From a virus: a stretch of DNA of 44,209 bases. Location of the stretch: UHGV virus genome UHGV-0377591. The stretch is one strand, 5' to 3'. The notes beneath the pieces were generated by a model that saw nothing but the letters and a program-made list of their open reading frames with translations, made no database searches and was not told where the DNA came from. Positions 32,802 to 41,056 of this stretch are shown piece after piece (position 1 is the first letter of the stretch; each line of letters starts with the position of its first letter). The position numbers and the translations under genes are program-made.

Positions 32802-34052
32802 TTAAAGTGCGAAAGTCACCGGGATGTTGATTACTGGTTTAACCACCGGCATCTCGTAAACTACAGGATAGCCCAGGGCATCTGCCATATGGTCGATGAT
32901 GCCGTCTTTGGATGGCTCCCCGTTATCGTCATATGCCTGCTGCTCCAGCGTCTTCGCTATCTCAGGGCATAAGTGGTCGTTAACCCACAGCTTACCTTTT
33001 TCCAGTGCGGTATTCACCGCTAAAACACGGTCTTTAACCGGCGGGTTGGCAGATTTAGCGCGAACATCGAACCCCGCCTGCTGTAGTAAGGCAATATCGG
33101 AGATTGATGCCGAGTTTGTCTTGCGGTTCTTGCCGCTGGCGTCGGGGTACACGACGATGCGGTGGCCCTGCGACTTCCACTTCTCTGTAATTACGCGCAC
33201 GGTATCCGGCGTATCGAACAGGCCTTTCAGTTCTGCTACCGCGTGCCAGCCGTCTTTACGTTGCACATACACGGCGCTGGCGTTCTTCGTAACGTTGAAG
33301 TCCTGCCCGATGTACAGCGTGTCGCCCGGTTGGATTGTCTCTTTGCTGCGATGCTTACGTCGGTCGTAGGCGTAGTAGACGCTGCCGTATGTCAGGTTAA
33401 CGAACTCCCCATTCAGGTACGCGTTAATCAGTTGCGCTGGGTAAGTCTCGGTCAGCGAGCTAATGTAGTCAGGCGGCAGGAATCGCGCGTTCTCGTGGGT
33501 GGAAGCCTGCACCATTGAGTAACTCGGTGTCGGGTTCTCTTTGAACTTGGCGTAGACGAACTTGAACCCTTCCGGCGTCGTGGTGACGGAGATGTGGTTG
33601 GTTACACCAGGGATAACCAGACGCATACGGGCGACGATTTTGTTCCATGCCAGTTCAGCTTTTTCTCGGCTCAGTACGTCCAGTTCATCCACGACCGCGG
33701 CGGCGATTTTGAAACCCACAATCGAACCGGGGTTATCCATAGAACGACAGATAACCGTTCCGAGCACCGTCTTACCGCGAGTAACCACGACCTCTTTGTC
33801 TCCGGATTTAACCAGCACATCAAGGCCGAGCAGGTTAGCCGCTTCCTCGAATGTCGGGTAGAAGATGTCACGGATGGCGGGATAGGTAGGGCCGAAGTAG
33901 CCCAGGCGCGTACCAGGGTGCTTGAGCATAAACGTAAGCAGGTCAAGGCAGCCGACAAACGTCTTGCCACTACCGAAGCCGCCTACGTAGGCCTTGTATT
34001 TGTTGTCACAATTCAGGAACAGTGCCTGCGGCGCGGATAGCTGAATACTCAT
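32802..34052 (-). CDS. Terminase large subunit, 416 aa
   Basis: Walker A YVGGFGSGKT; Walker B AAVVDELD; followed by the portal gene. Confidence 0.9.
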   Translation of the reverse strand: MSIQLSAPQALFLNCDNKYKAYVGGFGSGKTFVGCLDLLTFMLKHPGTRLGYFGPTYPAIRDIFYPTFEEAANLLGLDVLVKSGDKEVVVTRGKTVLGTVICRSMDNPGSIVGFKIAAAVVDELDVLSREKAELAWNKIVARMRLVIPGVTNHISVTTTPEGFKFVYAKFKENPTPSYSMVQASTHENARFLPPDYISSLTETYPAQLINAYLNGEFVNLTYGSVYYAYDRRKHRSKETIQPGDTLYIGQDFNVTKNASAVYVQRKDGWHAVAELKGLFDTPDTVRVITEKWKSQGHRIVVYPDASGKNRKTNSASISDIALLQQAGFDVRAKSANPPVKDRVLAVNTALEKGKLWVNDHLCPEIAKTLEQQAYDDNGEPSKDGIIDHMADALGYPVVYEMPVVKPVINIPVTFAL

Positions 34053-34594
34053 TCCTCTACCTCACCCATGTTCGTTGTTACAATTTTACCTACAGGCTCC
34101 GCAACACTGAAAATAATCTCAGTCGGTGCCGTTTCTTCGGCGGATTCAACTGGTTTCTCTTTGCCAAGGCCAAGTTTCGCAGCGGCAAACGTAGCAGAGA
34201 TACCTGCGGCCCCTGTCTCAGTGAAGTATGCCTCTTCCAATGCCTGCGCTGTCTCCCATGCTTCTGCGAATGCGGGAATCTCGCGCAGCCACAGCTTAAT
34301 AATCGGGATAGTGACGCCGATGCGTAAGGCAAAGCGGGCCAGTGACGGCGGTTTGTCCTGAATCAGCGGGCGTTCGTCGCCTTTGGAGGTAGGCACAAGC
34401 TCCCACGACGTGCGGTCGAAGAAACGAATCAATTCGTCGCAATAGTCCGGGTCCCACAACGCGGCGGAATTACGGGATGATTGATAAAGGCTCTGTTTAC
34501 CGAGCGGTCGTTTACGGCGACGGTTTGCGCTAACAGCTTCTTCATGTGCAGCTTGCACCACCTCTGGCGATGGCTGCTTGAGTTTCAGCTTCAT
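34049..34594 (-). CDS. Terminase small subunit (putative)
   Basis: Start moved to ATG 34594 (AAGGGG upstream); ATGA overlap with the large terminase start. Confidence 0.55.
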   Translation of the reverse strand: MKLKLKQPSPEVVQAAHEEAVSANRRRKRPLGKQSLYQSSRNSAALWDPDYCDELIRFFDRTSWELVPTSKGDERPLIQDKPPSLARFALRIGVTIPIIKLWLREIPAFAEAWETAQALEEAYFTETGAAGISATFAAAKLGLGKEKPVESAEETAPTEIIFSVAEPVGKIVTTNMGEVEE

Positions 34595-34685
34595 ATAATC
34601 CCCTTGCATATGCGTCTGACCATCAGAGCGCACCAGACGCGCCCTACGCGTCTAAAGGGATTATATAAGGGGATTGGGCGGGATG

Positions 34686-34712
34686 TACAGAAAAGCCCTC
34701 CGTAGAGGGCTT
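34686..34712 (-). terminator. Rho-independent terminator
   Basis: GCCCTC-CGTA/TACG-GAGGGC followed on the minus strand by TTTTCT. Confidence 0.6.
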
Positions 34713-34804
34713 GTATCAGTTATACAGGCCGTGTCGTGGTGCTCTTTTACCATCGCCGCCGTAATGGTTGTTAGCTACAGCGATAGCCCAGACGTTAGGG
34801 ATGA

Positions 34805-35047
34805 TTAGTAGCCGCATTCGTTCTCCTCTTTAGCAATACGTTGCTCTGTTTTAGTGATACCCCGGCGCGTGAATAACACCGGGCTTGTCTTAACGTGCGT
34901 CATCAGACGATTGTTATAAATTACGTGGCGCTCGCAATCAACGTCTTTGCTGTACTTCGCAATCGTCATTTCGTTGATGCCGGTTTGTCGGCATGTCTCA
35001 GCCATCGTGCCGTATTCTTTAATCAGGTTCGGAATGCTGGTAATCAT
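34805..35047 (-). CDS. Small HTH-containing protein, 80 aa
   Basis: Start moved to ATG 35047 (GAGGAA upstream; ATGA coupling); helix-turn-helix-like MAETCRQTGINEMTIAKY. Confidence 0.5.
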   Translation of the reverse strand: MITSIPNLIKEYGTMAETCRQTGINEMTIAKYSKDVDCERHVIYNNRLMTHVKTSPVLFTRRGITKTEQRIAKEENECGY

Positions 35048-35214
35048 CCTAAGAAATTCCTCGTTGTCCACATCGCATTCGGATATTTGTTATCACGGTC
35101 CTGCACTACGGCAATCATGTTTCCTCGTTGCACAAGACAGAAGTGCCGCTGTTGCTCGCCGTTGTATCGACGCCAGATTGCTTCTTCTATTGCGGCGTTG
35201 ATGTCACTGAACAT
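35044..35214 (-). CDS. Hypothetical small protein, 56 aa (not in the ORF track)
   Basis: Manual translation MFSDINAAIEEAIWRRYNGEQQRHFCLVQRGNMIAVVQDRDNKYPNAMWTTRNFLG. Confidence 0.35.
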   Translation of the reverse strand: MFSDINAAIEEAIWRRYNGEQQRHFCLVQRGNMIAVVQDRDNKYPNAMWTTRNFLG

Positions 35215-35301
35215 TAATATCTACCCCACAGAAATCCAACCAATAACCCAATGAAGTAACTAAGACCGACCAGACCAATAACCACCTCAAGACTCATACT
35301 C

Positions 35302-35484
35302 TCACCCCACTATCTCATCACCAAGCCACGCCGTTTCTCGTATATCGTCGACCACACAGGCGGCGTGCTCCCGGCTGATTGCAAAAATGTAGAAGCTGAA
35401 CTTCTTCCCGTCGGCGTCGATGTGGTTAACCGAGTAGGGTTTCCATAGGACGCCATCAATAACTACCGGTTCAGGCGCTTTCAT
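35302..35484 (-). CDS. Hypothetical protein, 60 aa
   Basis: Start moved to ATG 35484 (GGGTGG upstream); the track start is TTG. Confidence 0.45.
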   Translation of the reverse strand: MKAPEPVVIDGVLWKPYSVNHIDADGKKFSFYIFAISREHAACVVDDIRETAWLGDEIVG

Positions 35485-35749
35485 CTGGCGACCACCCAAG
35501 GCCACTAAGCATGTTAGTAATCTCCGACTCAAGCCGTTGGCCTAACTCTGATTTAGTGCAATGCTCTGACCATTCTCCTGACTCCAGCAAGCCGAGCATA
35601 TTTTCTATGTCCGCCGTGAGTGCGAGTAACAACTTAAACGCCTCCAGTTGAAATTCACCGTTAATCGACAGTTGCCCGCCTAACGTCTGTTTCTCTGACT
35701 CAAGAACCTGAATACGGCGTTCGAGCGATGCGATTGTGATTTTAGGCAT
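35471..35749 (-). CDS. Hypothetical coiled-coil protein, 92 aa
   Basis: Start moved to ATG 35749 (AGGGTG upstream). Confidence 0.5.
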   Translation of the reverse strand: MPKITIASLERRIQVLESEKQTLGGQLSINGEFQLEAFKLLLALTADIENMLGLLESGEWSEHCTKSELGQRLESEITNMLSGLGWSPDESA

Positions 35750-35915
35750 TGGTATCACCCTTGTTCAGGTTGAAACGGTTGATAAGTTCGCGGCGGTGCT
35801 CTTGCCACTCTGCGAGTTGTTTTTCCAGGTGTTCGATCATCTCGTCCGCGCCTTTAAGCCACGCTTGCCCGGTCGCAGATTCGACGCATGCTTTTTCATA
35901 TTCGTTGTTAGTCAT
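35742..35915 (-). CDS. Hypothetical small protein, 57 aa (not in the ORF track)
   Basis: Manual translation MTNNEYEKACVESATGQAWLKGADEMIEHLEKQLAEWQEHRRELINRFNLNKGDTNA. Confidence 0.35.
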   Translation of the reverse strand: MTNNEYEKACVESATGQAWLKGADEMIEHLEKQLAEWQEHRRELINRFNLNKGDTNA

Positions 35916-36060
35916 TCTTTACGCTCTCCCCACATGCGATTTAGATACTTGTCCGGCCCCGGGAAACTGTTACGTTTCATCAGTTCCTCGCGTGTCGGGA
36001 ACGGGGTGTGACTGACTTTACGTCCTACACGTAATGGCTTGCTGGACCTTGTTCGCTCAT

Positions 36061-36086
36061 TTCTTCTCTCCTGCATAAGCTGCTTT
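36061..36086. repeat. 26-bp exact direct repeat TTCTTCTCTCCTGCATAAGCTGCTTT, second copy at 36323-36348
   Basis: Identical strings at both sites; each spans the end of an MKITDT-type small ORF. Confidence 0.85.
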
Positions 36087-36124
36087 CAGTTGCTTGTTTT
36101 TGAAGGCTTTGGTATCTGTGATTT

Positions 36125-36322
36125 TCATTCGTAGCCCTCAAACTTACGTAAATCGCCTTTAGTGATATACTTACGGCGGGCCAATATCGTGTCCACGTCA
36201 TAATCCATTAGTGCGCCCGTTTCTTCCCCATCTGGCGTCATACTCGGCCCGTAAACAGAGAGACCCATCTCATTAAGGTATGTCATGAACTTCTCTACCG
36301 TTTTCTTCTGGTAACGCTTCAT
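36125..36322 (-). CDS. Hypothetical protein, 65 aa
   Basis: ORF track; ATGA coupling on both sides. Confidence 0.5.
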   Translation of the reverse strand: MKRYQKKTVEKFMTYLNEMGLSVYGPSMTPDGEETGALMDYDVDTILARRKYITKGDLRKFEGYE

Positions 36323-36468
36323 TTCTTCTCTCCTGCATAAGCTGCTTTAAGTGCCTTCATCGCCGCGGTCCAGAACGCGTCCGCTGGAATATTGCTGCTC
36401 AGGTTACTTACGGCGATACGTGCCATCAGTTGTGCGTCTTCGAATGCTTCGGTGTCTGTGATTTTCAT
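36319..36468 (-). CDS. Hypothetical small protein, 49 aa (not in the ORF track); a truncated 23-aa copy lies at 36057-36128
   Basis: Manual translation MKITDTEAFEDAQLMARIAVSNLSSNIPADAFWTAAMKALKAAYAGEKK; the short copy reads MKITDTKAFKNKQLKAAYAGEKK. Confidence 0.35.
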   Translation of the reverse strand: MKITDTEAFEDAQLMARIAVSNLSSNIPADAFWTAAMKALKAAYAGEKK

Positions 36469-36473
36469 ATTCA

Positions 36474-36686
36474 TTATCCCGCGTTGAAGGAGCCAAGTAC
36501 GATTCCGCTTTCTTTCGGTTTCTTGATTTCGGTAACTTTTACGTCATCGTTGAAGTTATTCATGGTTATTGGGTCGTCCTTAGCGCGAACCAGGCACAAG
36601 GCTTCTTCTGGCGACTTAGCCCACACCACAAAAGAATCGTATTGGTCGTAATCACACCAGCTGGCTTCTACTAAATATAATTTCAT
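36474..36686 (-). CDS. Hypothetical protein, 70 aa
   Basis: ORF track; GGAG ribosome-binding site; TTGACT-17-TATATT promoter-like sequence on the minus strand at 36720-36748. Confidence 0.5.
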   Translation of the reverse strand: MKLYLVEASWCDYDQYDSFVVWAKSPEEALCLVRAKDDPITMNNFNDDVKVTEIKKPKESGIVLGSFNAG

Positions 36687-36769
36687 CTTCTCTACTCCGT
36701 TCTCGTTGTCGATGGAGTAAATATAGTAGGGTCGCAGGTAATAGTCAACTAGTCATTGCAGAAAATAGA

Positions 36770-36803
36770 TAAAAAAAAATCCCGGCTGGGTCAGGGCCGG
36801 GAT
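36770..36803 (-). terminator. Strong rho-independent terminator after the endolysin gene
   Basis: Stem ATCCCGGC/GCCGGGAT with a 9-nt loop, followed on the minus strand by T9. Confidence 0.85.
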
Positions 36804-36867
36804 AAAACTGGAGAGCAGAGGGATGGAACAGGAGGTGATTTAAGTATCGTCGGATTAGTCTTAGGTG

Positions 36868-37365
36868 TTAACCTTTCACCGCTCGCCCGATAGCCTCCGC
36901 CTCCTGCCACGGCTTACCATCGAACAGCGCCAGACGACCAGCGGTACGGCGCCGGAGACCAAGCAGTTTCCTGCCTTTCTGGTAGACAAACTGACCCATA
37001 ATCCGACGGCACTCCGCTACATTTCCCAGGCGCACCGCGTCATCGAAGTCGGCTAGCTGGTTATCTTTCTCTATAACCCCTGTACCCACGTTGAAACAAA
37101 GGTCACAAATTGCGTCGAACTGCGCTTGATTGAATATCGGGTGCACTAATTCGTCGGCTTTCCTGACGGCCCTAGCCATATCGCGATTAAGTAGCAGGAG
37201 GCCTTGTCCGGGAGTGATGGTCTTGCCCGGTGTTACGTCCGGTCCGTAGTGGCCGTAGCCTATCGTCAGGTACTTCTCGTTTGACGTAGCACGATACGCA
37301 GTTCCGCGGAATCCCTCGAACGCGGCGGTGAAATGCAGTCCATTATCTGAAATGTTTCGAGACAC
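36868..37365 (-). CDS. Endolysin, GH24 (T4-lysozyme-type) muramidase
   Basis: Start moved to GTG 37365 (GGAGGA upstream). Catalytic signature FEGFRGTAYRATSNEKYLTIGYGH. Confidence 0.8.
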   Translation of the reverse strand: MSRNISDNGLHFTAAFEGFRGTAYRATSNEKYLTIGYGHYGPDVTPGKTITPGQGLLLLNRDMARAVRKADELVHPIFNQAQFDAICDLCFNVGTGVIEKDNQLADFDDAVRLGNVAECRRIMGQFVYQKGRKLLGLRRRTAGRLALFDGKPWQEAEAIGRAVKG

Positions 37366-37615
37366 GCTTATGTCCTCCGTATGACAGCCACGCCTGTCGA
37401 ATCTGACGCAGCGCAACTAATGTGATTAACGTCTCTGGCAGCGTTGGTGACATGCTGCCCTGTAACAGGTGGATACATCCGGCGGCGCAGACGATAGCAG
37501 TCAGGATATAGAGCACCCGGCCGAACAGCCCGTCGTCAACGCTGGGGTGATACACATTAAACAGCGATGTACCCCCGATTGCCAGCATACCGCCGAACCA
37601 GAATAACTCATTCAT
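37343..37615 (-). CDS. Two-transmembrane lysis-cassette protein (antiholin or second holin)
   Basis: Start moved to ATG 37615 (ATGA overlap with the holin stop); transmembrane segments LFWFGGMLAIGGTSLF and VLYILTAIVCAAGCIHLL. Confidence 0.45.
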   Translation of the reverse strand: MNELFWFGGMLAIGGTSLFNVYHPSVDDGLFGRVLYILTAIVCAAGCIHLLQGSMSPTLPETLITLVALRQIRQAWLSYGGHKRVSKHFR

Positions 37616-37916
37616 CCGGGCCCCCTCGACGTGCGATGTATTCTCCGGCAACGATACCGGAGAGACGGGAATAAATAGGCATCCAGAGAACGGCGATGAT
37701 AAAGCCCAGGCCAGCTATCTCGCGCTCCCCGGTAATACCGAACCATTGGGCTGCGAGAGGTGCACCAAATACGGCGCAGGTGAAGCCAGTTACGATAAAG
37801 AAGAAGCCGTCGATAGGGCCGGAAATAACGGACTTATGTTGTCGTAGTCCGATGACCCCTCCGGCGAGTGCGGCAGCCAGAAGCCAGCCTGTCACTGTTT
37901 CAGTAAATTTATCCAA
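37608..37916 (-). CDS. Holin (three predicted transmembrane segments)
   Basis: Hydrophobic segments WLLAAALAGGVIGL, FFFIVTGFTCAVFGAPLAA and LGFIIAVLWMPIY; first gene of the lysis cassette. Confidence 0.6.
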   Translation of the reverse strand: MDKFTETVTGWLLAAALAGGVIGLRQHKSVISGPIDGFFFIVTGFTCAVFGAPLAAQWFGITGEREIAGLGFIIAVLWMPIYSRLSGIVAGEYIARRGGPDE

Positions 37917-37975
37917 GATGAATCCTCCAGGTGCGTATTAAGTATGCAGTAACTGGAGGATACCACGGGTAGGAA

Positions 37976-38416
37976 TTATCCTAATAGTTGTTTGGTAATA
38001 ATCTTGCCGCCGTTGTTGGTGTCGAACTTCGATGCAACGGCTACGCCACCATGTGCCGAATACTCACATTCCATGGCCGCTAGTGCATAGGGTGCGCCAG
38101 ACCCAACGGCGGCAAAGCTATCGGCAACAGGAATAACAGAACTTAGTGCGCAATCCCATGATTTATAAAACGCGACTTTATACACCTTTTCTGTGTCTTT
38201 CACAAACACCAGGGCTTCGAAATCGAAGTCATAGTGCTTAGGCACTAAAATTCCCCGGTCACCAACGAGAATATCCCCTACCCCAGCATCGCCAGCGACC
38301 CCAATGACAGCGAAATAATTCTCGTATATCTTGGTATCTGTGTTGTAGCAGTTACTTCCGCACACAACACGGGTGTCACAGGCCATCGTCTTTCCGTCGA
38401 ACGCGATAGTAGTCAT
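37976..38416 (-). CDS. HslV / proteasome-beta-like N-terminal nucleophile hydrolase, 146 aa
   Basis: Thr right after the start Met (MTTIAFDG); AVIGVAGDAGVGD and AAVGSGAPYALAA blocks parallel bacterial HslV as recalled; GGAG ribosome-binding site. Confidence 0.6.
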   Translation of the reverse strand: MTTIAFDGKTMACDTRVVCGSNCYNTDTKIYENYFAVIGVAGDAGVGDILVGDRGILVPKHYDFDFEALVFVKDTEKVYKVAFYKSWDCALSSVIPVADSFAAVGSGAPYALAAMECEYSAHGGVAVASKFDTNNGGKIITKQLLG

Positions 38417-38706
38417 TTGCGTCTCCAGATGTATTGTCGTCTCTGCGGTTTCGTCGGAATATCATCGTATCCCAGCGATTTCCAGTAATTAAATAGCCGA
38501 TTAGCGATAGCGGCGCGCTCCTTTGTTTTAAACTCACCGAGATTCACGGCCTTCCCGTTCTGGAATCCACAGGCGCGGACCGCTTTGCGTCTGGCCTGAA
38601 TCTCAGGGTACATCGCGTTACCCCGACGCTTGTATATCCGGGTGTTCGCTCTCGGCGACAGCGGCGCAAGGCCGCTTCGTTCCAGGATGTCAGTTGCGAG
38701 GCTCAT
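38413..38706 (-). CDS. Hypothetical basic protein, 97 aa
   Basis: Start moved to ATG 38706 (ATGA coupling; the track start is TTG). Confidence 0.45.
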   Translation of the reverse strand: MSLATDILERSGLAPLSPRANTRIYKRRGNAMYPEIQARRKAVRACGFQNGKAVNLGEFKTKERAAIANRLFNYWKSLGYDDIPTKPQRRQYIWRRK

Positions 38707-38897
38707 ATTCCGAGAATCTCGCGGGCCATTTCTTCTGTAACTTTCGAACAAGGTGCGTACATTACCTGTTCGGCGAATTCACGTAACTTTGCTTCAAGTT
38801 TCAGATAAGCGTCGTATTCTACATAATCGCCGTATGCATACTCAGCCATCTCAGGCTCTGGCAGACCCCACGCTTTTACCTCATATCTCTGCACCAT
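38703..38897 (-). CDS. Small hypothetical protein (paralog A), 64 aa
   Basis: Start moved to ATG 38897 (TGATG coupling). Shares YVEYDAYLKLEAKLREF with paralog B. Confidence 0.5.
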   Translation of the reverse strand: MVQRYEVKAWGLPEPEMAEYAYGDYVEYDAYLKLEAKLREFAEQVMYAPCSKVTEEMAREILGI

Positions 38898-39079
38898 CAA
38901 TCCACCCCTTCCACATGTGTAACCGACCCACAGTTCGCGCACTCGACGTAATCCGGAAACTGGTCTTTGTATTTCTGTAACTCGGCTTCGAGTTTCGCGT
39001 AGTCTTCATAACTTACGTACTCCCCGTTTACTTTGCTATCGAAGTGGCCATCTTCATAAAAGCCTTTGCGAACAGCCAT
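38897..39079 (-). CDS. Small hypothetical protein (paralog B) with C-terminal CxxC, 60 aa
   Basis: ORF track; YVSYEDYAKLEAELQKY; ends ECANCGSVTHVEGVD. Confidence 0.5.
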   Translation of the reverse strand: MAVRKGFYEDGHFDSKVNGEYVSYEDYAKLEAELQKYKDQFPDYVECANCGSVTHVEGVD

Positions 39080-39081
39080 AA

Positions 39082-39285
39082 TTATCTCTCCTGTTTACCA
39101 AGTCGCTTAGGTGAGCAGATAGCGCGTACCTCTGAATCGTTGGGCTTGTCGCCCTGAAACAGGAAGTGCGCGTTCTCTGCGGCGCGTGCCGCTGACTGGC
39201 ACGCCTCCATCGAGTAAAACGTTTCTGATGCCGCCAGTTGCATCTGGCCTGCGGTAAGTGTCCAGATAAATAAGATGCTGGTCAT
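39082..39285 (-). CDS. Small protein with N-terminal hydrophobic segment, 67 aa
   Basis: Start moved to ATG 39285 (ATGA coupling); begins MTSILFIWTLTAGQMQLAAS. Confidence 0.45.
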   Translation of the reverse strand: MTSILFIWTLTAGQMQLAASETFYSMEACQSAARAAENAHFLFQGDKPNDSEVRAICSPKRLGKQER

Positions 39286-39620
39286 TTCTTTAGTCCGCAT
39301 ATTCTGCACATCATTGCGGAAGGTGACTTACGACTCCCAACGAATCGCCAGTGATGGGAACATTCCGACGTATCCCCCTTGCAGCAACCAGATTGCTCGG
39401 ACACTTGCGCGCACTTGCGGATAAGTTTGTACGCCTCCACGTCACCTGTAGCCAACGCCTTATGCAACTCCTTAATATGTTCTGACGCATCACGTAACTG
39501 ATTCTTGAGTGACAACACCTCGTGCGCCAGGTCTTCGCACTGTTGCTTGTACGGGCTGTTGTTCACCTGCTGCCGTAGTTGGTCGATCAGGTACTCGAAT
39601 ACTTCGTTTTTGTTACTCAT
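39282..39620 (-). CDS. Hypothetical protein with Cys-rich C-terminus, 112 aa
   Basis: ORF track; C-terminal CCKGDTSECSHH…CRIC. Confidence 0.5.
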   Translation of the reverse strand: MSNKNEVFEYLIDQLRQQVNNSPYKQQCEDLAHEVLSLKNQLRDASEHIKELHKALATGDVEAYKLIRKCAQVSEQSGCCKGDTSECSHHWRFVGSRKSPSAMMCRICGLKK

Positions 39621-39763
39621 CAGCTACCTCCAGTTCGCCGTAAACATGCTCGTTGTCGCCGCTGCATACACTGCAAACTCGCAACTCAGCATAAAGCTGT
39701 TCCAGTTTCTCAACCGTCAGATACTTATACATCTTCCGTCTCTCCTCTCGTTTGTGTAAATGA

Positions 39764-39792
39764 ATAGTAGCCTATTCTATCTTAATGTGCAA
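39764..39792 (-). promoter_or_regulatory. Class II promoter (leftward) with operator palindrome
   Basis: Minus strand TTGCAC, 17-bp spacer, TACTAT; plus-strand AATAG-TAGC-CTATT at 39763-39776. Confidence 0.5.
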
Positions 39793-40024
39793 GTAAATTT
39801 TATTGGTGTTTTAAAGATAATCGTTCACTGCGAATCCAGTAGTACCTCGGGCGTCGTACCCACTGACGCCATCGCATAACACGGTACTTGTTGCCGTCTG
39901 ACACAACAATAAGCCCGAATCGCTTTTCTCCGTTTCTACCGTCCAGGTTACGATGTCATTCGGTTTCATTGTTGCATCTCCTGCAATAGTCGCTTCGATT
40001 GTTGCGTTTGGTGAAATAGAACAA

Positions 40025-40060
40025 AAATGAGAAAAATGATACGCTGCTGTGTAGCAGCGT
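40025..40060 (-). terminator. Rho-independent terminator
   Basis: Perfect 8-bp stem ACGCTGCT-GTGT-AGCAGCGT (40041-40060) followed on the minus strand by a T-rich run. Confidence 0.6.
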
Positions 40061-40106
40061 AAGTCACTCAGTAAAATCTTAAACTATTGACCTGTTACAC
40101 CACCTG

Positions 40107-40319
40107 TTACACCAGCGATGGCGTCTTAGGCAGCGGCATCCAGTGGGTTACATCTTCAAGGGTATTTCCGGATAAATACGTGAAACCTCTATATTTCTTA
40201 TAATCGATTGGGCTTACAACCCAGTTCCAATATGCTGCCACGATTTCACCTTGACTAAATGCAAGTAACATTTGCGTATATTCCGGCATCCGCCCACTAC
40301 ACTTAATCCACTCGCCCAT
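40107..40319 (-). CDS. DUF551-like phage protein, 70 aa
   Basis: N-terminal EWIKCSGRMPE and C-terminal VTHWMPLPKTP match the family hallmarks as recalled. Confidence 0.55.
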   Translation of the reverse strand: MGEWIKCSGRMPEYTQMLLAFSQGEIVAAYWNWVVSPIDYKKYRGFTYLSGNTLEDVTHWMPLPKTPSLV

Positions 40320-40322
40320 ATC

Positions 40323-40514
40323 TCACTTCTGATTCGCTATAAACAACACACCAGCTTTCCACGCCCGCCACGCGAGACGCGTCTTAACGTTCAGGTACTC
40401 TTTCTTAGAGCCCTTGTTAACAGGCAGACCCTCGACGACGGCCCACCGTTCAAATGCTTCTCTCATAACTAATAACTCCGATAACTTTAGATTTCTCGCG
40501 CCTGGCGCAACCAT
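40323..40514 (-). CDS. Hypothetical protein
   Basis: ORF track; start uncertain. Confidence 0.4.
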   Translation of the reverse strand: MVAPGARNLKLSELLVMREAFERWAVVEGLPVNKGSKKEYLNVKTRLAWRAWKAGVLFIANQK

Positions 40515-40705
40515 GTTCTATGTAGTAGCGCGCCTGCTTGACGCTTTCGCAACGCGTCAGAGTAACCCACCAGAAAAAAGCCAACGCGAACCTGCACGGC
40601 AGGTGTAATTCGTTTCTCACCGAAGGCGGTAACCCACTCTTCGCTAACTATGCGGTATTTACTTAACACGGCAACCTCCCTGGGAGTCGTCGGCACGAGC
40701 ATCAT
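40487..40705 (-). CDS. Hypothetical protein
   Basis: ORF track; overlaps both neighbours, start uncertain. Confidence 0.4.
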   Translation of the reverse strand: MMLVPTTPREVAVLSKYRIVSEEWVTAFGEKRITPAVQVRVGFFLVGYSDALRKRQAGALLHRTWLRQAREI

Positions 40706-40868
40706 GATTCGATGCCGTTCGTATTGCTCGTAAACTATTTAACATTCTCTCACTAGTAGATGTAATAACCGTTATACCATCCACCAGGTGGATCTCGTAA
40801 CGTTCGGCTACGAAGTATATTTCCTCGAATTCATGATGTTTCAGTTCTTCAAATAATTCTTCCATCAC
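40659..40868 (-). CDS. Hypothetical acidic protein
   Basis: ORF track; start uncertain. Confidence 0.4.
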   Translation of the reverse strand: MMEELFEELKHHEFEEIYFVAERYEIHLVDGITVITSTSERMLNSLRAIRTASNHDARADDSQGGCRVK

Positions 40869-41056
40869 TTCGCCCCTTTGAATTTAAAATTGTTGCCGAT
40901 GAGTTCTAAATCTCCCCCAGGCATGCGTATTACCGAGTTTACTCCTCCCACATTTTGCACAATCACGATGTACTCCCCTGGAAATAAATCAGATTTTAAT
41001 TCAATTATGCCGTGGCTACCGTCGGCACATTTCACCAACTGACCCTCCTTAAACAT
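40865..41056 (-). CDS. Hypothetical protein, 63 aa; first gene of the leftward accessory operon
   Basis: ORF track; class II promoter about 35 nt upstream. Confidence 0.5.
   Translation of the reverse strand: MFKEGQLVKCADGSHGIIELKSDLFPGEYIVIVQNVGGVNSVIRMPGGDLELIGNNFKFKGAK

What the first reader, a model, noticed from the sequence alone, without database searches (positions are those of the whole stretch)
34805..36686. Dense run of translationally coupled small genes, several missed by the 60-aa ORF track
Between the small terminase gene and the lysis cassette nearly every gene overlaps its neighbour by ATGA or TAATG. Manual translation adds ORFs of 56 aa (35044..35214), 57 aa (35742..35915), 49 aa (36319..36468) and a 27-aa hydrophobic peptide (35214..35297, MSLEVVIGLVGLSYFIGLLVGFLWGRY), and further downstream 39 aa (39613..39732) and 51 aa (39814..39969). 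Such small-gene blocks in virulent phages are a frequent home of host-takeover and anti-defence factors.
Basis: seen in the sequence. Interest (0 to 1): 0.4.

Follow-up and report, generated by a model that had tools for sequence, protein, structure and literature searches.

The report
Kagunavirus small accessory-gene operon
This is the ordinary, already-sequenced block of a dozen tiny, overlapping accessory genes that Kagunavirus coliphages carry between their lysis genes and their DNA-packaging genes; the small ORFs are real genes under selection, but nothing here shows what they do.

Summary
The window is a ~44 kb Kagunavirus (Guernseyvirinae) coliphage. The finding lies on the minus strand.

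**Observation holds.** Twelve ORFs tile 36686→34716 (1971 nt; shuffles reach at most 522). Junctions are ATGA ×4, TAATG ×2, longer overlaps ×4 and one 4-nt gap. The block looks like one operon: a predicted sigma-70-like promoter (36748-36720) after the endolysin terminator, and its own predicted terminator (34711-34687) before terS.

**The small ORFs are genes.** All but the 27-aa ORF and the g23 remnant match whole PHROG families of unknown function. Eleven tested ORFs have pN/pS of 0.02-0.25 in the claimed frame, including the 27-aa peptide (0.11).

**Corrections.**
- ORF 36128-36057 is an internally deleted copy of the 49/51-aa gene.
- The DUF2737 gene carries a private 4-nt deletion.
- The "51-aa" ORF (39969-39811) is a frameshifted phrog_9384 gene; only its first 10 codons are genuine.

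**Function.** One gene is a divergent NinH homologue and one resembles P22 NinZ. A relative's "T7 Gp2-like RNA polymerase inhibitor" label for the 60-aa gene is not supported. The host-takeover/anti-defence reading is untested: no direct evidence, only weak positional hints. Ordinary and already known; low interest.

The parts
36770..36803 (-). Predicted intrinsic terminator closing the lysis cassette: 8-bp G+C-rich stem, 9-nt loop, U9 tract.
   Evidence: RNAfold -13.8 kcal/mol. The stretch is 94-99% identical in 35-39 of 41 related loci. The consensus scan missed it because its loop limit is 8 nt.
36720..36748 (-). Sigma-70-like promoter of the small-gene operon: TTGACT, 17-nt spacer, TATATT.
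   Evidence: 10 of 12 consensus matches. Aligned in 39 of 41 relatives at 88-98% identity. Predicted only; not mapped experimentally.
36474..36686 (-). g70, 70 aa, phrog_5444. A rare cassette.
   Evidence: PHROG E 4e-8. Found in L009 (1 of 41 loci) and in EP-B-K_E2. pN/pS 0.13.
36319..36474 (-). g51/g49, phrog_2180. It is 51 aa from the TAATG-coupled ATG at 36474, or 49 aa from the ATG at 36468 that is conserved in all relatives.
   Evidence: PHROG E 4e-25. Present in about 39 of 41 loci. pN/pS 0.25 from 36 variants. Annotated as 150 nt in relatives.
36125..36322 (-). g65, 65 aa, phrog_35106. A rare cassette, ATGA-coupled at both ends.
   Evidence: PHROG E 4e-15. Found only in L026 and EP-B-K_E2. 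pN/pS 0.14.
36057..36128 (-). g23, 23 aa: an internally deleted second copy of g49 (N-terminal MKITDT fused to C-terminal KAAYAGEKK). It keeps the ATGA coupling at both ends.
   Evidence: Direct repeats D1 (48 nt, 79%) and D2 (39 nt, 92%) match g51's two ends. L026 has the order g65 then an intact g49. An intact 23-aa ORF is also present in EP-B-K_E2. Selection could not be tested.
35912..36076 (-). g54, a DUF2737 / phrog_4684 gene with a private 4-nt deletion at about 36038/36037. The canonical ATGA-coupled start (36060) now ends after 11 codons. The conserved frame is reachable only from an upstream ATG (36076) that has no Shine-Dalgarno sequence.
   Evidence: Pfam DUF2737 29.4 bits against a cut-off of 25. 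Alignment to five relatives shows the deletion. SD duplex -0.6 kcal/mol. The closest relative lacks the deletion.
35742..35915 (-). g57, 57 aa, phrog_1402. Resembles P22 NinZ. Highly allelic across relatives.
   Evidence: BLASTP against P22 NinZ: 35% identity over 52 aa, E 5e-7 against a 23-protein set. Relatives are 41-92% identical. pN/pS 0.12.
35471..35749 (-). g92, 92 aa from the ATG at 35749. Conserved N-terminal half (probably coiled coil) and a swappable C-terminal half.
   Evidence: phrog_9023 and phrog_10200 match the N-terminus. The N-terminal half aligns in about 30 of 41 loci, the C-terminal half in 5 of 41. pN/pS 0.17.
35302..35484 (-). g60, 60 aa from the ATG at 35484, phrog_10509. 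The most widely shared core gene of the block.
   Evidence: All 41 loci, 71-100% identical. pN/pS 0.05. AF2 pLDDT 82, three strands plus a helix. 81 cluster representatives at E<=1e-3. Homologues sit in the lysis-terminase slot of lambdoid (pro)phages.
35214..35297 (-). g27, a 27-aa single-span hydrophobic peptide with a G17xxxG21xxxG25 glycine zipper and its own Shine-Dalgarno sequence. A present/absent cassette.
   Evidence: Found in 66 phage records, almost all unannotated at that position. Present in 19 of 41 loci. pN/pS 0.11 from 12 variants. Variable sites by codon position 12/4/21, p=0.003. No PHROG hit.
35044..35214 (-). g56, 56 aa, phrog_5407. The most constrained gene in the block.
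   Evidence: PHROG E 2e-25. pN/pS 0.02 from 30 variants. A 93-aa allele of the same family occupies the slot in some relatives.
34805..35047 (-). g80, 80 aa from the ATG at 35047 (ATGA-coupled). A divergent NinH homologue with an N-terminal helix-turn-helix.
34716..34817 (-). g33, 33 aa, phrog_32259. Strong Shine-Dalgarno sequence (GAGGAG), a 13-nt overlap with g80, and a stop codon 5 nt before the terminator stem.
   Evidence: PHROG E 1e-15 over 33 of 33 positions. pN/pS 0.17 from 26 variants. SD duplex -9.1 kcal/mol. Annotated in relatives.
34687..34711 (-). Predicted intrinsic terminator of the operon: AGCCCUC-UACG-GAGGGCU followed by UUUCUGU. The next promoter-like site (34689-34660, TGTACA, 18-nt spacer, TATAAT) precedes terS.
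   Evidence: RNAfold, promoter scan, 91-99% identity in 32-39 of 41 loci.
39613..39732 (-). u39, 39 aa. First gene after the predicted promoter TTGCAC-17-TACTAT (39792-39764), overlapping the next gene.
   Evidence: Diverse alleles share Y..L...L...Y.......(V/I)C(D/N)GD directly upstream of u112 homologues. pN/pS 0.16. Codon-position bias p=0.012.
39811..39969 (-). One G is lost from a GGG run at about 39940, so only the first 10 codons are in the ancestral frame.
Evidence: Relatives encode MKLNDIVTWTGRNGEKRFGLIV.... The ORF as read hits only positions 1-11, E 0.0065. The ORF-sized cassette is absent from many relatives.

Best explanation
The region is the accessory small-gene operon that Kagunavirus phages carry between the lysis cassette and the small terminase gene.

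**Shown.**
- Twelve same-strand ORFs (70, 51/49, 65, 23, 54, 57, 92, 60, 27, 56, 80 and 33 aa) tile 36686-34716 with stop/start overlaps.
- Eleven have detectable relatives. Ten of them are under purifying selection in the claimed frame. The eleventh, g54, could not be scored.
- Gene content is mosaic. There is a conserved core (g49, DUF2737, g60, g56, NinH-like g80, g33). There are also swappable cassettes (g70, g65, g27, the C-terminal half of g92, and alleles of g57).

**Inferred.**
- Host RNA polymerase starts at the sigma-70-like promoter at 36748-36720, just after the endolysin terminator, and stops at the hairpin at 34711-34687.
- Ribosomes pass from gene to gene by termination-reinitiation at the ATGA/TAATG and longer overlaps. 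Most starts also have their own Shine-Dalgarno sequence.
- The repeated junction sequence (SD + ATGA; GCAGGAGAGAAGAAATGA occurs twice) offers short homologies for cassette exchange. This would account for the g65 insertion and the truncated g49 copy.

**Function.** g80 is a divergent NinH (Fis-like helix-turn-helix) homologue and g57 resembles P22 NinZ, so the block is partly related to lambdoid nin-region genes. The other products have no known function. My best guess is that they are dispensable modulators of infection, expressed together with the lysis and packaging genes rather than as immediate-early takeover factors.
For: - **Identity.** About 90% DNA identity to more than 100 Kagunavirus records, with the same synteny.
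- **ORF chain and junctions.**
- **Family matches.** PHROG families for all but g27 and the g23 remnant.
- **Selection.** pN/pS 0.02-0.25, lowest in the claimed frame. Third-position bias.
- **Regulatory elements.** Promoter and terminators are predicted and are more conserved than the flanking endolysin gene: 94-95% against 76%.
- **Mosaicism.**. Junction repeats.
- **Homology.** NinH and NinZ.
- **Timing.** In Kagunavirus vB_Eco_K1B4 RNA-seq the NinH gene is classed as 'middle', together with lysozyme and structural genes (PMC12645636).
- **Position.** g60 homologues occupy the same lysis-to-terminase slot in lambdoid (pro)phages.
Against: - There are no transcription or translation data for this phage.
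- The promoter and terminators are consensus or folding predictions, and the scan found no more promoter-like sites than shuffles do (9 against 7.5).
- The RNA-seq paper has coarse time classes and only 57 gene models, so most small ORFs were not scored.
- Dispensability is inferred from presence/absence among relatives, and only for the cassettes. The core genes (g60, g56, g80) are nearly universal and strongly constrained, so they may matter more than 'accessory' suggests.
- g54 (frameshifted 5' end, no Shine-Dalgarno sequence) and g23 (a remnant) may not yield functional proteins here.
Confidence: 0.8

Rival explanations
1. Anti-defence / host-takeover island. One or more of the small proteins, most plausibly the conserved g60, g56 or g27, binds and inhibits a host factor or an immune system. 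The cassette turnover would then reflect an arms race.
For: - Cassette turnover at fixed slots.
- The g60 family is widespread: 81 cluster representatives.
- In lambdoid (pro)phages it sits in the lysis-terminase slot. In L083 it lies one gene away from a product carrying PF24729, Acb2_Tad1_hairpin, an anti-CBASS/anti-Thoeris sponge family.
- One GenBank record labels the g60 homologue 'RNA polymerase inhibitor, similar to 2LMC_A'.
- g60 is small and acidic, with a 3-strand + helix fold.
Against: - No block protein matches any characterised takeover or anti-defence family in PHROGs, Pfam, NCBIfam or PADLOC.
- Kagunaviruses are reported to be highly RM-sensitive and variably Old-sensitive (PMC11990801).
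- The NinH gene is not in the earliest expression class.
- Neighbourhood association rests on a single locus.
Confidence: 0.15
2. Several of the shortest ORFs are not functional genes. They would be decaying remnants or chance ORFs kept open because they overlap real genes or regulatory sequence.
For: - g23 is a deletion derivative of g49.
- g54 lost its coupled start to a 4-nt deletion.
- The '51-aa' ORF is a frameshift chimera with pN/pS 1.38.
- g27 has no PHROG family, is absent from about half of relatives, and one variant carries charged or polar substitutions in the membrane span.
- The ORF at 34753-34661 shows no coding signal (pN/pS 1.19).
Against: - For g27, g33, g49/51, g56, g57 and u39 the claimed frame has the lowest pN/pS of the six frames (0.02-0.25), with synonymous divergence of 0.2-0.4.
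- These ORFs show third-position bias.
- They have Shine-Dalgarno sequences.
- A g27 variant with an in-frame 15-nt deletion keeps the frame.

So this rival holds only for g23, the window's copy of g54, and the 51-aa ORF.
Confidence: 0.05

Closest known systems
Homologous lysis-to-terS small-gene blocks of published Kagunavirus/Jerseyvirus phages (for example K1G, vB-Eco-KMB36, EC3-1, fEg-Eco06, BASEL Bas70-76, EP-B-K_E2)
   Same: Same position and strand, the same conserved promoter and terminator regions, and the same PHROG families. DNA identity is about 90%. EP-B-K_E2 has the same g70-g49-g65-g23-DUF2737 order.
   Different: No single record covers more than 83% of the block, so the cassette combination differs. 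This genome has private frameshifts in the DUF2737 and phrog_9384 genes. In most records the 27-aa gene is not annotated.
nin regions of lambda (ninB-ninI) and P22 (ninA-ninZ)
   Same: A run of small ORFs with overlapping stops and starts. It contains a NinH homologue (E 4e-10) and a NinZ-like gene (E 5e-7). P22 NinA is a 26-aa hydrophobic peptide ending in WGR, like g27. Content is mosaic between phages.
   Different: The nin region lies between the replication genes and the Q antiterminator and is read by antitermination from pR. This block lies after the lysis cassette and has its own predicted promoter and terminator. It has no NinB/Orf, NinG/Rap, NinC or NinI counterpart and no DNA-level match to E. 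coli prophages. The host phage is virulent.
Lysis-to-terminase accessory slot of lambdoid phages (P22 rha/orf25/orf80/orf59c; prophage loci L082-L084)
   Same: Same position relative to the lysis and packaging genes. The g60 family (58% identity) occurs there. Content is variable and includes DUF2560, DUF551 and an Acb2/Tad1-like gene.
   Different: Only g60 is shared. In lambdoid phages the slot is part of the Q-dependent late operon, an established fact about those phages. Here separate promoter and terminator elements are predicted.
T7 Gp2, inhibitor of E. coli RNA polymerase (PDB 2LMC, 2WNM)
   Same: Similar size (60 against 64 aa), net acidic, a small beta-sheet-plus-helix fold, and a local resemblance (FSFYIFAISREHA against SFEVPIYAETLDEA).
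   Different: - No significant sequence or profile similarity.
- The predicted strand order is beta-beta-beta-alpha. From my own knowledge of the Gp2 structure, its order is beta-beta-alpha-beta.
- There is no counterpart of Gp2 Arg56/Arg58 in g60's C-terminal tail (my own knowledge plus inspection of the sequence).

Membership tests
Kagunavirus lysis-terS accessory operon | Lies between the endolysin and terS on the same strand, with the conserved flanking regulatory regions. | tested here: met
   (synteny); intergenic regions are 94-95% identical in 35-39 of 41 loci.
Kagunavirus lysis-terS accessory operon | The gene products belong to the same protein families as those in the relatives' blocks. 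| tested here: met
   PHROG hits for 10 of 12 ORFs, plus tblastn presence of g27. Core genes are in 34-41 of 41 loci.
Lambdoid nin region | Contains NinH and other nin-family genes. | tested here: met
   g80 against lambda and P22 NinH: E 4e-10 in the direct pairwise comparison and E 2e-8 / 1e-7 in the 23-protein nin-set BLASTP. g57 against P22 NinZ: E 5e-7. NinB, C, D, E, F, G and I have no counterpart.
Lambdoid nin region | Located between the replication genes and the Q antiterminator, and read by N-antiterminated pR transcription. | tested here: not met
   The block lies between the endolysin and terS and has its own predicted promoter and terminator. So it works like a nin-type small-gene run and is partly homologous to one, but it is not a nin region by position.
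NinH (Pfam PF06322), Fis-like DNA-binding protein | Sequence membership in PF06322. | tested here: inconclusive
   g80 scores 25.9 bits against the gathering cut-off of 29.8. Pairwise E is 4e-10 against lambda NinH, and close relatives carry precomputed PF06322 hits.
NinH (Pfam PF06322), Fis-like DNA-binding protein | N-terminal three-helix HTH followed by a beta hairpin. | tested here: met
NinH (Pfam PF06322), Fis-like DNA-binding protein | Residues shown to be needed for DNA binding in lambda NinH: N18, R30, T32, K35, H45, H55, R56 (PMC7166090). | tested here: not met
   Using the alignment: T32, K35, H45 and H55 are conserved. N18 becomes T, R30 becomes E (invariant in the Guernseyvirinae clade), and R56 becomes V. 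DNA binding in the lambda NinH manner is therefore uncertain.
NinH (Pfam PF06322), Fis-like DNA-binding protein | Homodimer that binds and bends DNA. | not testable with these tools
   Needs EMSA and analytical ultracentrifugation, as in PMC7166090.
T7 Gp2 RNA polymerase inhibitors | Detectable sequence or profile homology to Gp2. | tested here: not met
   BLASTP E 0.16. phmmer and hmmsearch against PDB sequences find no Gp2. hhalign probability is 0.3% with the shallow profile and 1.9% with the 34-sequence profile.
T7 Gp2 RNA polymerase inhibitors | The Gp2 fold. | tested here: inconclusive
T7 Gp2 RNA polymerase inhibitors | Binds the beta-prime jaw of E. coli RNA polymerase. | not testable with these tools
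   Needs a pull-down or an in-vitro transcription assay.
DUF2737 (PF10930) | Pfam score above the gathering cut-off. | tested here: met
   29.4 bits against a cut-off of 25. phrog_4684 E 1e-24. However, the 5' end is frameshifted in this genome.
P22 NinA-like micro membrane peptide | About 26 aa, a single hydrophobic span, a C-terminal WGR, and sequence similarity beyond composition. | tested here: inconclusive
   Length, hydrophobic span and WGR are shared. The Smith-Waterman score beats composition-preserving shuffles only at p about 0.01-0.02.
Known anti-defence proteins | Homology to a characterised anti-defence family. | tested here: not met
   No such hit in PHROGs or Pfam, and nothing in PADLOC or NCBIfam. 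No dedicated anti-defence library was available, so this test is incomplete.

The most novel reading that the evidence does not exclude
The strongly constrained core products, above all the g60 family, may be uncharacterised inhibitors of host factors or immune systems. The g60 family (phrog_10509) has no Pfam model, is found in Kagunaviruses and in the lysis-terminase slot of lambdoid prophages, and in one locus lies one gene away from an Acb2/Tad1-like gene. The almost never annotated 27-aa glycine-zipper membrane peptide is a second candidate. On this reading the lysis-terminase slot would be a shared counter-defence locus that acts late in infection.
Probability: 0.15. Interest if true: 0.55.

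Novelty: already known. Interest (0 to 1): 0.2.

Why it matters
As it stands this is a routine feature of a well-sampled phage genus, and its practical value is mainly for annotation.

- A 27-aa gene under purifying selection is left out of almost all of the 66 public records that carry it.
- Two accessory genes in this genome are frameshifted and would be mis-called by an ORF finder.
- Two labels on relatives' genes lack support. 'RNA polymerase inhibitor' failed the tests made here. 'Host nuclease inhibitor' is an unsupported automatic label on the same family; none of the searches made here gave that family a function.

If the core proteins (g60, g56, g27) turned out to target host factors, Kagunaviruses would be a convenient system to study them. 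They are small, engineerable and now part of the BASEL collection.

Tried and rejected
2. **Solved-structure relatives** of g70, g56, g92, g65 and g80 by sequence: none.
3. **NCBIfam and PADLOC** for the block proteins: no hits.
4. **Rfam** across 34000-41000: only sub-threshold hits on the terminator hairpin.
5. **DNA-level counterpart in 5,426 E. coli genomes**: only an 87-nt piece of the g92 C-terminal half, in ~110-kb plasmids. The block is therefore not a recent prophage acquisition.
6. **Exact-match scans of IMG/VR for the two frameshift alleles**: none found. Real mutation and assembly error cannot be told apart.
7. **ORF 34753-34661 (30 aa)**: no coding signal (pN/pS 1.19).
8. **Literature on Kagunavirus CM001 gene essentiality**: nothing usable found.
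9. **The 1913-aa hit (P0068)** in the g60 profile search is an ankyrin/kinase protein with odd short hits to many small families. I treated it as spurious or chimeric and did not follow it.


Full report
**What the window is.** A 4.5-kb query around the finding matches 372 phage records, best at about 90% identity. The best matches are Escherichia phages of genus Kagunavirus (Guernseyvirinae), with Salmonella Jerseyvirus further off. No record covers more than 83% of the block itself, which already points to mosaic content. All genes of the finding are on the minus strand.

**Checking the observation.** With start codons chosen by comparison with annotated relatives, the chain is:

| Gene | Coordinates (minus strand) | Note |
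|---|---|---|
| g70 | 36686-36474 | |
| g51 | 36474-36319 | 49 aa from 36468 |
| g65 | 36322-36125 | |
| g23 | 36128-36057 | |
| g54 | 36076-35912 | |
| g57 | 35915-35742 | |
| g92 | 35749-35471 | |
| g60 | 35484-35302 | |
| g27 | 35297-35214 | |
| g56 | 35214-35044 | |
| g80 | 35047-34805 | |

Junctions are TAATG x2, ATGA x4, overlaps of 8, 13, 14 and 20 nt, and one 4-nt spacer. The chain spans 1971 nt. Dinucleotide shuffles give a mean of 272 and a maximum of 522, and the plus strand gives 225. Ten of twelve starts have an anti-SD duplex of -4.3 kcal/mol or stronger, against a mean of -2.7 for the other ATGs on the strand.

**Are the small ORFs genes?** Ten of the twelve match PHROG families, mostly over their full length, and all of those families are of unknown function. 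Pfam adds DUF2737 for g54 and a sub-threshold NinH hit for g80.

I fetched 38 related loci from IMG/VR plus GenBank records and computed Nei-Gojobori pN/pS against the window in all six frames.
- In the claimed frame the values are: g70 0.13, g51 0.25, g65 0.14, g57 0.12, g92 0.17, g60 0.05, g27 0.11, g56 0.02, g80 0.10, g33 0.17 and terS 0.07.
- The claimed frame is always the lowest of the six.
- Variable sites are enriched at codon position 3. For g27 the counts are 12/4/21, p=0.003.

So the sub-60-aa ORFs in the block are protein-coding genes under purifying selection. That is the strongest evidence available without expression data.

**The 27-aa peptide.** tblastn finds it in 66 phage records, 60 of them Escherichia phages. 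The match lies under 'none' in nearly all annotated records, RefSeq entries included. It is a present/absent cassette, found in 19 of 41 loci. In relatives that have neither it nor another insert, g60 is followed directly by g56.

The same slot elsewhere holds one of two other genes:
- a 76-aa protein of phrog_986 (category 'RNA-binding protein');
- an 85-aa protein that looks like a coiled coil with a glycine-rich C-terminal membrane span. That span loosely resembles g27.

All but one of the full-length g27 variants keep G17xxxG21xxxG25, a glycine zipper, which suggests helix-helix packing in the membrane. The exception, L016, has R at position 17. This is inference from the sequence. The nearest annotated analogue is P22 NinA (26 aa, MTIYITELVTGLLVIAGLFIWGRGKT). 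It shares length, the hydrophobic span and the C-terminal WGR, but the alignment score beats shuffles only at p about 0.01.

1. g33 (phrog_32259, strong GAGGAG Shine-Dalgarno sequence, pN/pS 0.17) was missed. It extends the operon to 5 nt before the terminator.
2. g23 is made of the 5' end (48 nt, 79% identity) and the 3' end (39 nt, 92%) of a g49 gene. Locus L026 has g65 followed by an intact g49. EP-B-K_E2 has the same g70-g49-g65-g23 order with an intact 23-aa ORF. The window therefore carries a g65 cassette together with a collapsed second g49 copy, which still preserves ATGA coupling on both sides.
3. g54 (DUF2737) has a 4-nt deletion relative to five relatives. The canonical ATGA-coupled start at 36060 now gives MSEQGPASHYV-stop. 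The conserved frame is reachable only from an ATG at 36076 that has no Shine-Dalgarno sequence. The closest relative lacks the deletion.
4. The '51-aa' ORF at 39969-39811 is a chimera.
   - Relatives encode a 55-aa protein, MKLNDIVTWTGRNGEKRFGLIV....
   - The window has lost one G from a GGG run.
The ORF as read matches only its first 11 positions.
   - This ORF-sized cassette lies between a predicted terminator (40061-40040) and a predicted promoter (39792-39764), and it is absent from many relatives.
5. The 39-aa ORF is supported. Divergent alleles share a motif directly upstream of the next gene, and pN/pS is 0.16.

**Operon structure (inferred).** A G+C-rich hairpin with a U9 tract follows the endolysin (36803-36770, -13.8 kcal/mol). 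A TTGACT-17-TATATT site (36748-36720) precedes g70. A second hairpin with a U-rich tail (34711-34687) follows g33. A TGTACA-18-TATAAT site precedes terS. These intergenic stretches are 94-95% identical in 35-39 of 41 loci, more conserved than the adjacent endolysin gene at 76%.

Between these elements conservation is blocky. g70 and g65 align in 1-2 loci, the g92 C-terminal half in 5, g27 in 18, and the core genes in 34-41. The sequence GCAGGAGAGAAGAAATGA (SD + stop/start) occurs at both g49-type junctions. Such junctions are plausible crossover points for cassette exchange.

**Function.**
- *g57.* It resembles P22 NinZ (E 5e-7).
- *g60 family.* An exhaustive profile search shows the family is wider than first seen: 81 cluster representatives, mostly 60-70 aa, with a conserved W...DG..FSF.IYAIS.EHA core, no Pfam model, and all in phrog_10509. 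A 58%-identical homologue lies between the lysis cassette and the terminase in lambdoid (pro)phages. In one of these loci it lies one gene away from an Acb2/Tad1-hairpin family gene. That is a positional hint that the slot can host counter-defence genes, and no more than a hint.

**Timing and phenotype from the literature.** RNA-seq of Kagunavirus vB_Eco_K1B4 places the NinH gene among 42 'middle' genes, with lysozyme and structural genes, not among the four earliest genes. The time classes are coarse and there are only 57 gene models (PMC12645636). The BASEL extension reports Kagunavirus isolates as highly sensitive to restriction-modification systems and variably sensitive to Old (PMC11990801). 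This argues against a broad anti-restriction function in the genus, but it says nothing about other defence systems.

**Verdict.** The small ORFs are genes, apart from one frameshift chimera, one remnant and one damaged gene. The block is the known, already deposited accessory operon of Kagunaviruses. It is partly related to lambdoid nin genes and sits in the lysis-terminase slot that lambdoid phages also use for accessory genes. The host-takeover/anti-defence interpretation is neither supported nor excluded by anything computable here. Interest is low. The only under-described items are the conserved but almost never annotated 27-aa membrane peptide and the widespread, uncharacterised g60 family.

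Noticed in passing
window 36025-36076 (minus strand): The DUF2737 gene has a private 4-nt deletion at about 36038/36037. The ATGA-coupled start at 36060 now gives an 11-codon peptide. The conserved frame is reachable only from an SD-less ATG at 36076. The deletion is absent from the closest relative and from IMG/VR, so it could be a real mutation or an assembly error.
   Followed up: yes
window 39811-39969 (minus strand): One G is missing from a GGG run at about 39940, which frameshifts a phrog_9384 gene. The whole ORF-sized 156-bp cassette is absent from many relatives. It lies between a predicted terminator (40061-40040) and a predicted promoter (39792-39764).
   Followed up: yes
window 35214-35302, and the same slot in L003-L041: The g60/g56 junction is a hotspot for cassette exchange. 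In relatives it is empty or holds one of three genes: g27, a 76-aa phrog_986 protein (category 'RNA-binding protein'), or an 85-aa protein that looks like a coiled coil with a C-terminal membrane span. Further genes also appear between g56 and the NinH-like gene in some relatives.
   Followed up: partly
window 38897-39079 (minus strand): A 60-aa ORF (phrog_29624) also gives a weak hit (E 0.007) to phrog_3592, 'Lar-like restriction alleviation protein'. It has a C-terminal CxxC. This was the only takeover-category PHROG hit seen near the finding.
   Followed up: no
window 37976-38416 (minus strand): An HslV-family peptidase homologue (phrog_1040) lies directly upstream of the two holins. It is conserved in relatives and its role is unclear.
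   Followed up: no
window 35517-35603: An 87-nt piece of the variable g92 C-terminal half matches, at 78-81% identity, ~110-kb plasmids in 141 E. coli records. It is the only part of the block with a DNA match in E. coli genomes.
   Followed up: no
window 39746-39793; L044, L048, L057, L061: The promoter-bearing 48 nt upstream of the 39-aa gene recurs at about 77% identity elsewhere in several relatives' early regions. This suggests a repeated promoter module.
   Followed up: no
L083 3343-3624 (lambdoid prophage, GCA_036235075.1): A 93-aa product with a precomputed PF24729 (Acb2_Tad1_hairpin) hit lies one gene upstream of the g60-family homologue, in the lysis-terminase interval.
   Followed up: partly
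phrog_268 profile against window g57 and g80: One PHROG profile (119 positions) matches g57 over its positions 1-46 and the NinH-like g80 over positions 44-117. This could mean fused NinZ-like/NinH-like proteins exist somewhere, or it could be an artefact of how the family was clustered.
   Followed up: no
window 34634-34804 against L026, L080: Several relatives carry an extra ~60-aa two-span membrane protein gene between the NinH-like gene and g33. It is absent here, so g33 overlaps g80 directly.
   Followed up: partly
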